Source of the DNA: Squalus acanthias
Lineage: Eukaryota
Reading direction: 5' to 3'
NCBI GenBank assembly: GCA_030390025.1
Contig: CM059432.1
Coordinates: 82,400,001 to 82,464,000, forward strand
Length of the DNA stretch: 64,000 nt
A model generated the notes under the pieces. The model was not told the DNA's origin, did no database searches, and saw nothing but the letters and a program-made list of their open reading frames with translations. This document shows positions 23,273 to 25,950 of this stretch, piece by piece (the first letter of the stretch is position 1; each line of letters begins with the position of its first letter). The position numbers were made by a program, and so were the translations under genes.

Positions 23273-23401
23273 TCAACTTGGCTCAGTAGTGGTACCTTGC
23301 CTGAGTCAGATGGTTGTAGGTTCAAGCCCCGCCCCAGGATTTGAACACATAATCTAGGCTGACACTTTAGTGCAGTACTGAGGGAGTACTGCAATTTTGG
23401 A

Positions 23402-23523
23402 CATGATGCGGAGATGGTCGGACCATTGTAACTTTACCTGAGGAAGGGGCGACAGCTCCGAAAGCTTGTAATTTTAAATAAATCTGTTGGACTATAACCT
23501 GGTGTAGTGCGACTTCTCATTTT
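23402..23523 (+). mobile_element. Short non-autonomous Penelope-like retroelement with hammerhead motif and 5' inversion
   Basis: 12-bp TSD TGCAATTTTGGA (23390-23401, 23524-23535). Body is homologous to the reverse complement of 25655-25785. Confidence 0.8.
23434..23471 (+). ncRNA. Minimal type-I hammerhead ribozyme motif
   Basis: TTAC-CTGAGGA-a-GGGGC-gaca-GCTCC-GAAA-GCTT-GTAA: stem I TTAC/GTAA, core CUGANGA...GAAA, stem II, loopless palindromic stem III (AAGCTT), NUH triplet CUU. Confidence 0.72.
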
Positions 23524-23560
23524 TGCAATTTTGGAGATGCCTTTTATCAAACGAGACATT

Positions 23561-23921
23561 GGGTAGAACTTTCAACTTTGGCAGGGGCATAGAACAGGTG
23601 ATATCAGGTTGGATATGTTTAGTGTCAAAGCTACTAAGACTCCTAGATCTCTTTCAGCTATTTCAACACCATTCATGCCATGTGCATGTCTTCCTATAAG
23701 TAGCGCTAACAGTTGTCTGTATTAAATTTCACCTGGCATTGTTCTGCCCACTTACATATTTTGTCCAACTCATTGTGGAATTTCTTAGCTACCTCTTTCG
23801 ATTCAACTGCCTGATTTTCCCCTCCATTAAAGTCAAGTAAAGAAAAATCAGGTGGGGTGTATCAGGCGGCCGATCCAATATTACCTCTTTCACACTCCCA
23901 CCAAAGTTGATGGTTTTGGCC
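23561..23921. mobile_element. Harbinger-type MITE carrying a captured local duplication
   Basis: Termini GGGTAGAACTTTCAACTTTGG / GGCCAAAACCATCAACTTTGG; flanks ATT/ACT. Interior 23615-23810 copies 22165-22353. Confidence 0.65.
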
Positions 23922-24334
23922 ACTCAGGTAGGTCTAAAAGATCTCATGGTACTACTTAAAAAAGAGCAGGAAATTCTCCTGGTGTCCTGGCAGACATTTA
24001 TCGCTCAACTAATAACACTGGAACAGATTATATAGTCATTTATCTCACGGATGTTTGTGGGACATTGCTGTGTGTAAATTGGCTGCTACATTTTCCTACA
24101 GAACAGAGATGACACTTCGAGTACTTTATTGGCTGTAAAGTGTTTTTCAACGTGTTGAGGACATAAAAGGTGTTACATAAATGCAAGTTTTATTTTTTCA
24201 GAAAAGGATTTAACAGCTATCATTAACTCAAATGTATTATGAAGCAGCATGTGAAGCAGTTATTATACAGCAACTACCTATAAATTTTATACTGGTGTGA
24301 TTTTGAGAGTGGTGAGAGTGGGCAGCTTTGATTT

Positions 24335-24570
24335 CATAGAATCATAGAATATTACAGCACAGAAGGAGGCCATTTGGCCCATCATGCCTGTGCCAGCTCT
24401 TTGAAAGAGCTATCCAATTAGTCCCACTCCCCTGCTCTTTCCCCATAGCCCCCTAATTTTCCCCCTTCAAGTATTATGCAATTCCCTTTTGAAAGTTACT
24501 ATTGAATCTGCTTCTGCGACCCTTTCAGGCTGTGCATTCCAGATCATAACAACTCGCTGCGTAAAAAAAA
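24335..24570 (-). mobile_element. CR1 3' end fragment
   Basis: catagaatcatagaat tail plus 3' UTR similar to 10090-10320. Confidence 0.85.
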
Positions 24571-24721
24571 AAGGTTGTGCTGACCCATTCACACTCACAG
24601 GCCTGCTCTGTTCTGAGCAACACAATTTCCAAGAGAGGTCCTCAAAGAAGTGTTAGGCCAAACATTAGCATTTGCATGAGGTCTAACACCTGTATTAGAC
24701 GGCCGCCGCAGACGTGTGACA

Positions 24722-25105
24722 ATTGTCCTTCCAGGTGGTAGAGGTCGCAGGTTTGGGAGGTGCTGCCGAAGAAGCCTTGGCGAGTTGCTGCAGTGCACCT
24801 TGTAGATGGTGCACACTGCAGCCACGGCACGCCGGTGGTGGAGGGAGTGAATGTTTAAGGTGGTGGATGGGGTGACGATCAAGTGGGCTGCTTTGTCCTG
24901 GATGGTGTCGAGCTTCTTGAGTGTTGTTGGAGCTGCACTCGTCCAGGCAAGTGGAGAGTATTCCATCACACTCCTGACCTGTGCCTTGTAGATGGTGGAA
25001 AGGCTTTGGGGAGTCAGGTGAGACATTTGCCATAGAATACCCAGCCTCTGACCTGCTCTTGCAGCCACAGTATTTATGTGGCTGTTCCAGTTAAGTTTCT
25101 GGTCA
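24722..25105 (-). mobile_element. CR1-group LINE RT C-terminal fragment (different family)
   Basis: KLNWNSHINTVAARAGQRLGIL...TIYKAQVRSVMEYSPLAW...KLDTIQDKAAHLI...SLHHRRAVAA. Confidence 0.8.
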
Positions 25106-25654
25106 CCGTCTAGTATTAGGACACTAAAATTCACTATGTTTGGAGCTAGTGGAGGTCAGTGAGGATGGGTATGACGGATGTGACCTAATGACGGACAGAA
25201 TGTGGCACCAGAGTTTTGGATAAGTTGGACTTTGTGTAAGGAGGAGTTCGGGAAGCCAGTAAGGATGGCATTCAGGAAGTTGAATCGTTAGATAAGATAA
25301 GAATGGAGCAGGGTTTCAGTGACAAAAGAGATGAAATGGGACAAAAGAGCACAATGTTGTAAAGGCGGAAGTACAAGGACTTGGTGTTGGACACTGTAAC
25401 AATTTAGATTTTACATGTATTACCTGAACTGGATTTTTTCAATTTATAACATTTCTGTAATCTAAAAGTCAGCATTTTTTCTCAACAATAAGCAAGGCAA
25501 CTGTACTATGGTGTTTTGAAGTGCTAGTTAGATATCCATAGAGGGGATCAAAGCTTGCCCATCATTGATGCTGTTTACTTATGTGGCTTTCAAACAATGA
25601 GAACACTCCAAGGATCAATTAACTGAAATGGCCATCGTGGACAAGCCTTTGATA

Positions 25655-25785
25655 TGATGCGGAGATGCCGGTGTTGGACTGGGGTGGACAAAAACGAGAA
25701 GTCGCACAACACCAGGTTATAGTCCAACAGTTTTATTTAAAATTACGAGCTTTCGGAGCTGCTGCCCCTTCGTCAGGTAGAGGTA
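25655..25785 (-). mobile_element. Short non-autonomous Penelope-like retroelement with hammerhead motif
   Basis: 8-bp TSD CTTTGATA (25647-25654, 25786-25793); about 90 bp homologous to 23434-23520. Confidence 0.8.
25743..25780 (-). ncRNA. Minimal type-I hammerhead ribozyme motif (sense to SLCO5A1)
   Basis: Minus strand cTAC-CTGACGA-a-GGGGC-agca-GCTCC-GAAA-GCTC-GTAa: intact catalytic core, stem II, loopless stem III AGCT, NUH triplet CUC. Confidence 0.75.
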
Positions 25786-25950
25786 CTTTGATAGATAGCC
25801 ATTCTGGGTTAATTAAACAATCAAAAGTATTTTGTTTGCCCACAGTTCAAAGGGCAGGCCGAACCTGGAATTCTTGTTGATTGAAAGCTCGATGGGACAA
25901 ACCCCTGAGCTCAAAGACTTAAGAGCTTGGCTCTCTCTCTCAGACACAAT

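What the first reader, a model, noticed from the sequence alone, without database searches (positions are those of the whole stretch)
23390..25793. Family of ~125-bp TSD-flanked, hammerhead-ribozyme-bearing retroelements (retrozyme-like)
Seen: two homologous non-coding inserts (23402-23523 +, 25655-25785 -) with their own TSDs (12 bp and 8 bp). Each has a complete CUGANGA...GAAA core, a conserved stem II whose loop differs (GACA vs AGCA), and a loopless palindromic stem III (AGCT). Established: minimal type-I hammerheads of this form occur in Penelope-like element pLTRs and are thought to cleave as dimers. Inference: these are tiny non-autonomous RNA-mobilised elements, or extreme truncations, of a PLE family. 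That family differs from the PLE at 55117, whose ribozyme stems and tail are different.
Basis: partly seen in the sequence, partly recalled or inferred. Interest (0 to 1): 0.72.

Follow-up and report, generated by a model that had tools for sequence, protein, structure and literature searches.

The report
Stub insertions of a Penelope retroelement
These two small ribozyme-bearing inserts are real, but they are most likely the leftover end-pieces of a very abundant Penelope-type jumping gene in a shark-like genome, an already described kind of insertion rather than a new class of tiny RNA element.

Summary
Both inserts, their 12- and 8-bp target duplications and their minimal type I hammerheads are real, and the second has an empty site in a related organism. 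They are not two copies of one ~125-bp unit. Insert 1 is a head-to-head inversion: 15 nt of the element's 3' end laid backwards, then a copy lacking the last ~35 nt. Contigs of four public runs show a very abundant repeat whose copies end at two 3' positions about 40 nt apart, the optional 'tail' that marks Penelope-like elements (PLEs). The repeat continues upstream of insert 2 and past its tail into an ATG. Both inserts keep the uncleaved ribozyme, and neither is tandem. A 141-bp head-to-head stub of the window's ORF-bearing Neptune-like PLE (35914-36054) has the same build. Best reading (0.8): extreme 5'-truncated PLE insertions, not retrozymes. The partner ORF was not found, so a short non-autonomous family remains possible (about 0.14). 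Self-cleavage is untested. This scan has noted the same kind of stub before, in this genome and in others.

The parts
23390..23401 (+). Left copy of the 12-bp target-site duplication of insert 1
   Evidence: empty site aligns gap-free to host-repeat copy 57889-57816
23402..23416 (-). Inverted 15-nt copy of the element's distal 3' end (tail end, including the G of the ATG)
   Evidence: 14 nt identical to 25654-25667; the 15th base fits the loose-end consensus next to 25654 in three runs
23417..23427 (+). 11 nt of unknown origin at the inversion junction (divergent upstream sequence or filler)
   Evidence: outside the 98-nt match with insert 2; unlike the upstream consensus
23428..23523 (+). 5'-truncated pLTR-like body ending at the proximal 3' site (no tail); TG at 23524-23525 is shared with the TSD
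23434..23471 (+). Minimal type I hammerhead: stem I 5' strand 23434-37, CUGAGGA 23438-44, extra A, stem II 23446-59, GAAA 23460-63, AGCU palindrome 23463-66, U17 at 23467, stem I 3' strand 23468-71
   Evidence: activity untested
23524..23535 (+). Right copy of the 12-bp TSD of insert 1
23324..23560 (+). Host interspersed repeat (SINE-like; label from recall) interrupted by insert 1
   Evidence: 78-79% identical copies at 57889-57816 and 39153-39068
25647..25654 (+). 8-bp TSD at the 3' end of insert 2; base 25654 is shared with the element
   Evidence: empty site in organism B
25655..25785 (-). Insert 2: 5'-truncated pLTR plus tail, 131 bp
25654..25692 (-). Optional tail of about 39-42 nt between the two 3' end clusters; its last bases begin an ATG in other copies
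   Evidence: loose ends with long unrelated flanks pile at 25653/4 and 25696/7 in four runs
25744..25779 (-). Minimal type I hammerhead of insert 2: C3 at 25776, C17 at 25747
   Evidence: covarying stem I pair 25779/25744
25786..25793 (+). 8-bp TSD at the 5' end of insert 2; base 25786 is shared with the element
35914..36054 (.). Context and control: 141-bp non-coding head-to-head stub of the other PLE family, tail on the left arm only
55117..56121 (+). Context: 5'-truncated Neptune-like PLE of another family (Cys-linker plus GIY-YIG ORF end, degenerate hammerhead at 55995, 14-bp TSD 55103-55116/56122-56135)

Best explanation
Both inserts are extreme 5'-truncated insertions of an abundant endonuclease-bearing Penelope-like element (clade not determined): only the terminal repeat (pLTR) with its minimal hammerhead, with or without the ~40-nt tail, was copied. 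Mechanism: (1, inferred) a PLE transcript with the ribozyme uncleaved is bound by the PLE RT/GIY-YIG protein; (2, shown by TSDs and empty sites) the target is cut with a stagger of 8 or 12 nt; (3, shown as two genomic 3' end clusters, mechanism taken from PMC11167929) reverse transcription starts inside the RNA at one of two sites about 40 nt apart; (4, inferred) synthesis stops early, here 10-21 nt past the ribozyme core. Insert 2 is one cDNA from the distal site. Insert 1 arose when both target strands primed: one copied 15 nt from the distal site, the other about 100 nt from the proximal site (2-nt microhomology), and the two were joined head to head. The hammerhead is cargo of the pLTR; if it cleaves, it does so as a dimer or with protein help in tandem transcripts, not at these loci.
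For: Two 3' end clusters with long, unrelated flanks (median 255 letters, agreement 0.38-0.51): at 25654, 126/135/44/22 contigs in X5/X1/X6/X21; at 25696, 72/87/17/14. This matches the optional 30-40 bp tail (PMC11167929, PMC8557442, PMC3846280). Insert 1 has the tail end on one arm and stops 5-7 nt from the second cluster on the other; inverted 5'-truncated copies with a tail at one end only are the described PLE layout. The loose-end consensus next to 25654 ends in the same five letters in X5, X1 and X21, so the template runs on past most insertion ends (element sense CAT-CAT-G-ACTA), as internal initiation predicts; in a rotifer PLE the pLTR plus tail cover the ORF start. On the 5' side no shown position has more than 18 contigs, and they carry short (15-51 letter) shared continuations, so insert 2 is truncated relative to the family. 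Both inserts keep 40 and 51 nt 5' of the cleavage site, as with the uncleaved template in PMC11167929. Several insert 1/insert 2 differences (25747, 25731) are common family variants, so they came from different source copies. The ORF-bearing PLE of this window has a 141-bp head-to-head stub whose short arm stops 42 nt before the element's 3' end.
Against: No RT or GIY-YIG ORF was linked to this family: no genome is held, pattern scans of three collections gave no true relative, and protein searches with the open frame before the ATG found nothing real. Both inserts stop matching each other at nearly the same place, 10 nt upstream of the core, and 18 contigs of X1 have loose ends at 25786 with median 51 letters, which could mean clustered 5' ends. 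Only 24 of 356 loose-end rows were shown, and diverged subfamilies drop out of the alignment before the 5' end, so the 5' length distribution is not measured. Contigs collapse repeats, so tandem arrays would be under-counted. Unchecked earlier notes describe a Tx1 LINE that inserts at one site in PLE tails of this genome, which could add to the 25696 cluster.
Confidence: 0.8

Rival explanations
1. A distinct short non-autonomous family (SINE-like 'solo pLTR plus tail', about 130-170 nt) transcribed from its own start just upstream of the hammerhead and copied in trans by a PLE protein. The chemistry is the same as in the best explanation; the template is a short RNA with a fixed 5' end.
For: Both inserts lose similarity 10 nt upstream of C3. 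Summed contig depth over the element is about 6e4 to 4e5 times the flank (a crude figure, not a copy number). A shared upstream consensus is visible for only about 11-15 letters. No partner ORF was found. Non-autonomous PLE derivatives exist (Chlamys MRC1; vertebrate retrozymes).
Against: No 5' position shows a pile of unique flanks like the 3' ends (at most 18 against 126-135 contigs in the rows shown). The template runs on past the tail into an ATG. An ORF-bearing PLE in the same window makes equally small stubs. Single genome-wide minimal hammerheads were already read as truncated PLEs (PMC4209133).
Confidence: 0.14
2. Monomers shed by a tandem non-LTR retrozyme: arrays are transcribed, cut by dimeric hammerheads, circularised, and the circles reverse-transcribed into new sites.
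For: Non-coding, type I hammerhead, TSD longer than 4 bp (as in PMC7229834). The 2026 preprint finds pLTR-derived retrozymes, including solo monomers, in the one chondrichthyan genome it sampled (mean consensus 363 bp). One head-to-tail joint of two units was seen in X5 (25760 to 25655, depth 22.8).
Against: Neither insert is tandem. Ends are not at the cleavage site and are not circularly permuted: 3' ends sit at two fixed sites. The ribozyme is the minimal PLE type, which PMC7229834 separates from the canonical retrozyme type. The X5 joint has single-copy depth (flank 27.1) and breaks inside the core. The active double hammerhead is not the predicted lowest-energy dimer (-16.9 against -26.4 kcal/mol for insert 1, -14.1 against -21.7 for insert 2).
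Confidence: 0.05
3. The two copies are the inverted ends of one 2.4-kb composite element that captured host DNA, or the similarity is chance.
For: They form a 98-nt inverted repeat 2163 nt apart; capture of host DNA between pLTRs is described (PMC3846280).
Against: Each has its own TSD and its own empty site; no duplication flanks the pair; E 7e-35 excludes chance.
Confidence: 0.01

Closest known systems
Endonuclease-bearing Penelope-like elements (Penelope/Poseidon, Neptune, Nematis): truncated and inverted pLTR insertions with a tail (PMC3846280, PMC8557442; passages read)
   Same: 5' truncation, head-to-head inverted copy, tail of 30-40 bp on one end only, TSD of 8-12 bp (8-10 bp in the rotifer examples), hammerhead in the terminal repeat.
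   Different: The inserts are only 122 and 131 bp, the inverted arm of insert 1 is only 15 nt, and no ORF has been linked to this family.
PAc, Poseidon element of Anolis carolinensis (PMC11167929; main text read)
   Same: Two adjacent internal 3' ends that define the tail; uncleaved ribozyme in the inserted copy; both target strands can be extended; AT-rich flanks.
   Different: In PAc the ORF starts at stem II of the ribozyme; here the candidate ATG is at the tail end, about 120 nt downstream of C3, and is not shown to open an ORF.
Minimal hammerheads of metazoan PLE pLTRs (PMC4209133; parts 1-2 of 4 read)
   Same: Core, extra base between positions 9 and 10.1, G10.1-C11.1 pair, loopless palindromic stem III, short stem I, mostly single motifs spread through the genome.
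   Different: Stem II is 5 bp (7-8 bp in the Schistosoma examples); this sequence family was not found described in the papers searched.
Non-LTR retrozymes of animals (PMC7229834; bioRxiv 10.64898/2026.07.22.740005)
   Same: Non-coding, type I hammerhead, derived from or related to pLTRs, dependent on PLE enzymes.
   Different: Retrozymes are tandem repeats, typically with canonical hammerheads, and make circular RNA; these inserts are single, minimal-type and end at PLE tail sites.
Neptune-like PLE at window 55117-56121 and its stub at 35914-36054
   Same: Same architecture: truncated copy with tail and TSD; tiny head-to-head stub with arms ending at different 3' sites.
   Different: Unrelated terminal sequence beyond 9 nt of the core; it carries a GIY-YIG ORF end.

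Membership tests
EN+ Penelope-like element | RT plus GIY-YIG ORF belonging to the same family | tested here: inconclusive
   No ORF in the inserts; no genome held; searches found no link. Template continues past the tail into an ATG.
EN+ Penelope-like element | Optional 30-40 bp tail (two 3' ends) | tested here: met
   Loose-end clusters at 25653/4 and 25696/7 in four runs; insert 1 uses both.
EN+ Penelope-like element | Head-to-head inverted 5'-truncated copy, tail at one end only | tested here: met
   23402-23416 inverted against 23428-23523; one opposite-strand joint in X1.
EN+ Penelope-like element | Minimal hammerhead in the terminal repeat | tested here: met
EN+ Penelope-like element | Variable 5' truncation | tested here: inconclusive
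   The repeat continues upstream of insert 2 and no 5' pile is shown, but the length distribution was not measured.
EN+ Penelope-like element | Target-site duplication of variable length | tested here: met
   12 and 8 bp, both with empty sites.
Minimal type I hammerhead | Core, extra base after A9, G10.1-C11.1, palindromic loopless stem III | tested here: met
   against the description in PMC4209133
Minimal type I hammerhead | Covariation in stems across copies | tested here: inconclusive
   Stem I pair U-A in both inserts; other copies show 25744 T>C (38-39% of depth in organism A, 99% in B) and G at 25779 in loose ends, which would give C-G; stem II G.U versus A-U. The two sides are not phased per copy.
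Minimal type I hammerhead | Self-cleavage as dimer or with protein | not testable with these tools
   Active dimer fold is not the predicted minimum; needs an assay.
Rfam hammerhead families | Covariance-model match | tested here: not met
Non-LTR retrozyme | Tandem repeat of two or more ribozyme-bearing units | tested here: not met
   Both loci single; one single-copy-depth head-to-tail joint elsewhere; genome-wide arrays not testable on contigs.
Non-LTR retrozyme | Canonical type I hammerhead with stem III loop and loop 1-loop 2 contacts | tested here: not met
   Loopless minimal type. The 2026 preprint also admits minimal motifs if tandem.
Non-LTR retrozyme | Expressed as cleaved monomers and circular RNA | not testable with these tools
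   No run on record as RNA was listed; contigs cannot show RNA ends.
Non-LTR retrozyme | No protein coding capacity | tested here: met
   No similarity to 153 PLE proteins fetched; longest open stretch 27 codons.

The most novel reading that the evidence does not exclude
A dedicated, non-tandem, SINE-like family of about 130-170 nt that consists of a PLE terminal repeat alone, has its own fixed start just upstream of a minimal hammerhead, is copied in trans by a PLE protein at the two tail sites, and has reached on the order of 100,000 copies in several cartilaginous fishes: a Penelope counterpart of the SINE-LINE partnership, distinct from tandem retrozymes. Insert 1 would then be a natural record that both target strands prime on such a short RNA, one at each initiation site.
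Probability: 0.14. Interest if true: 0.55.

Novelty: new member of a known kind. Interest (0 to 1): 0.22.

Why it matters
As a kind it is known. Its use is as a compact in vivo footprint: insert 1 shows both target strands primed, one at each of the two initiation sites that were mapped in vitro for the anole element, and both inserts show that the copied RNA was not cut by its ribozyme. With a repeat this abundant, a genome-wide count of such junctions could test how PLE inversions form and whether the hammerhead or a nearby start site sets the 5' end. If the 5' ends proved fixed, it would be a PLE-dependent SINE-like family, which would matter to transposon biologists and to repeat annotation of shark genomes.

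Tried and rejected
Rfam: no hit at gathering score in 64 kb; 3 chance hits and no hammerhead at E up to 10 in 23200-26000. Own genome: none held, so no genome-wide BLAST. Pattern scans: viral contigs 0, metagenomes 0 twice, prokaryote genomes 0 twice; 14 viral loci from an 18-mer match only 18-23 nt and are chance. Search for the partner ORF through the 27-codon open stretch before the tail ATG: 3 candidates and none at E up to 10; 1 hit among 1.84 billion representatives, a tandem-repeat protein with 6 of 12 identities, rejected. A search with the N-terminal part of a full-length Neptune-like protein gave 2050 hits, 120 listed, none linkable; only 55-56 kb of the window matches those proteins. 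Folding: insert 2 is no more stable than shuffles (z -0.02); its 3' 82 nt give z -1.57, 14 of 200 shuffles as good, so the 9-bp stem between body and tail is only a lead. Expression: no RNA holder listed; X21 is a guessed RNA run and its 1589 laid contigs do not show transcription. Loss of depth toward the 5' side was not used, since subfamily divergence also causes it. Reading the insert-1 TSD as 16 bp with one mismatch was rejected because those bases belong to the inverted tail. Literature searches found no description of this family or of twin priming in PLEs; Repbase and Dfam could not be searched. PMC5785218 is not held; only its title was seen in a reference list.
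Full report
Setting. The window is repeat-rich vertebrate DNA: LINE-type RT and endonuclease fragments and a DDE transposase fragment were found in 6 of 16 ORFs scanned. The PLE ORF at 55.1 kb has its closest named relatives in sharks and rays at 55-66% identity. No whole genome is held, so family-wide evidence comes from one laying of public contigs on 25500-25940: runs X5 and X1 (organism A, two samples; either may be the source of the assembly), X6 (organism B) and X21 (organism A, RNA by guess only).

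The observation. The TSDs, the 98-nt 90.8% match and both hammerhead motifs are present as stated. Each motif has CUGANGA, an extra A, a 5-bp stem II closed by G10.1-C11.1, GAAA, loopless AGCU and a 3-4 bp stem I, which fits the minimal hammerhead of PMC4209133. Rfam does not detect it. Both are true insertions. Removing insert 1 and one TSD restores a host repeat that aligns gap-free to 57889-57816. An X6 contig skips 25647-25785 with 8 letters fitting both sides, while X1 and X5 each hold a contig that runs from the flank into the element.

Correction to the anatomy. Insert 1 is not colinear with insert 2. Reading the plus strand: TSD; 15 nt that are the reverse complement of the element's 3' end (23402-23416); 11 nt of unknown origin; the ribozyme-bearing body (23428-23523), which stops about 35 nt short of the 3' end of insert 2, with TG shared between element and TSD; TSD. 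Both 3' ends face outward, 21 nt of tail are absent, and the 14-mer occurs only at these two places in the window. This is a miniature of the PLE layout in which an inverted 5'-truncated copy adjoins the insertion and a 30-40 bp tail is present on one end only (PMC8557442 and PMC3846280).

The family. 7588 (X5, about 55% of the run read), 11742 (X1), 1885 (X6) and 1589 (X21) contigs were laid. Summed depth peaks at 7.3e6, 6.1e6 and 2.2e6 against 27.1, 16.7 and 37 on the flank, ratios of about 2.7e5, 3.7e5 and 6e4. The tool warns that this is no copy number; I take it only as 'very abundant'. Loose ends (24 of 356 rows shown) with long, mutually unrelated, AT-rich flanks pile at two 3' positions: 25654 (126, 135, 44, 22 contigs) and 25696 (72, 87, 17, 14). 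The loose letters next to 25696 are the common variants of 25693-25695, so the true second end is near 25690-25693, where insert 1's long arm stops (25689-25691 in insert 2 coordinates). Two 3' ends bracketing an optional tail are the signature that PMC11167929 traced to two internal initiation sites and calls unique to PLEs. Next to 25654 the consensus ends in TAGTC in X5, X1 and X21, so some copies read on into an ATG; that this opens the ORF is inference, by analogy with the rotifer element whose pLTR and tail cover the first 22 codons. On the 5' side of the core no shown position has more than 18 contigs, and these carry short shared continuations, so the repeat extends beyond insert 2; how far is not known.

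Ribozyme variation. Other copies show T>C at 25744 and G at 25779, which turns the U-A pair of stem I into C-G; stem II has A-U where the inserts have G.U, with a 3-nt loop; N7 is G, C or U; N17 is C or U. The two sides of each pair come from different tables and are not phased, so this is support, not proof. Nearest-neighbour energies do not favour the active double hammerhead over other dimers or two monomers, in line with the low activity of minimal hammerheads and protein-assisted cleavage of PAc. Both inserts keep 40-51 nt upstream of the cleavage site, so the copied RNA was uncut there.

Control in the window. The element at 55117-56121 is a 5'-truncated PLE with a 14-bp TSD, a cysteine-rich linker and a weak GIY-YIG match; its full-length relatives carry RT and GIY-YIG. 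The linker places it near Neptune/Nematis by the description; no tree was built. Its end also occurs at 35914-36054 as a 141-bp non-coding head-to-head stub; the short arm stops 42 nt before the element's 3' end and the long arm runs 27 nt further. No TSD of 7 bp or more was found there. An ORF-bearing PLE family thus makes stubs of the same size and build as insert 1.

Mechanism. Shown: staggered cuts, two 3' ends, inversion, uncut ribozyme. Inferred: a PLE RT/GIY-YIG protein primes on the nicked target and starts inside the RNA; early termination leaves 122-131 bp; in insert 1 both strands primed, at the distal and proximal sites. Whether one RNA or two served as template cannot be told. PAc extends both target strands in vitro.

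Against this reading. The partner ORF was not found. The two inserts stop matching at nearly the same 5' point, and 18 X1 contigs have loose ends at 25786. Contigs under-count tandem arrays; one head-to-tail joint at single-copy depth was seen in X5. The 2026 preprint reports pLTR-derived tandem retrozymes with solo monomers in its one chondrichthyan genome; its supplementary tables, which I could not see, may list this family. Unchecked earlier notes of a Tx1 LINE targeting PLE tails in this genome could inflate the 25696 cluster, although long unique flanks argue for true ends.

Papers as seen. bioRxiv 10.64898/2026.07.22.740005: parts 1-3 of 5, no supplements. PMC11167929: parts 1-2 of 4, supplement list only. 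PMC4209133: parts 1-2 of 4. PMC3846280: 12 passages. PMC8557442: 11 passages. PMC7229834: 12 of 28 passages. PMC6765202: 5 passages. PMC5785218: title in a reference list only. Searches found no account of this family. The labels 'SINE-like' for the host repeat and 'twin priming' are from recall.

Verdict. Real, well preserved, and most likely ordinary PLE stubs (0.8). A distinct short family is the live alternative (0.14); a circular-RNA retrozyme is unlikely for these loci (0.05). The scan has noted fold-back and stub PLE insertions before, in this genome and others; my reading was written down before I saw those notes. New member of a known kind; interest 0.22.

Noticed in passing
window 35914-36054: 141-bp head-to-head fold-back made of the terminus of the 55.1-56.1 kb PLE family, arms ending 27 nt apart, no TSD of 7 bp or more found; the right arm begins just upstream of the ribozyme cleavage site.
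   Followed up: partly
window 23533-23541 and 25661-25669: The insert-1 target shares 9 nt (GGAGATGCC) with the reverse complement of the tail, across the right TSD boundary; the two other host-repeat copies have G at the differing base. Chance or tail-like target choice; unexplained.
   Followed up: partly
window 23417-23427: 11 nt at the inversion junction match neither insert 2 nor the upstream consensus from public contigs; they loosely resemble a part of the tail.
   Followed up: partly
window 25545-25584: A contig of run X6 (organism B) skips these 40 bases: a second indel near insert 2.
   Followed up: no
window 25671-25679 with 25722-25730: A predicted 9-bp stem pairs the body with the tail and encloses the proximal 3' site; no variant at 4% or more was listed in either strand, but folding is not significant against shuffles.
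   Followed up: partly
window 55995-56022: The hammerhead of the 55-kb PLE copy is degenerate: short stem II and a broken palindrome.
   Followed up: partly
window 26870-26994: Two adjacent palindromes of 44 and 36 nt (91% and 94%), with a shorter one between them; another at 17940-17996. Possibly transposon subterminal hairpins.
   Followed up: no
window 598-1239: DDE_Tnp_4 (Harbinger-type) transposase fragment, E 4.9e-36.
   Followed up: no
window 24331-24590: A second interspersed repeat between the two inserts, with at least six other copies in the window at 66-87% identity.
   Followed up: no
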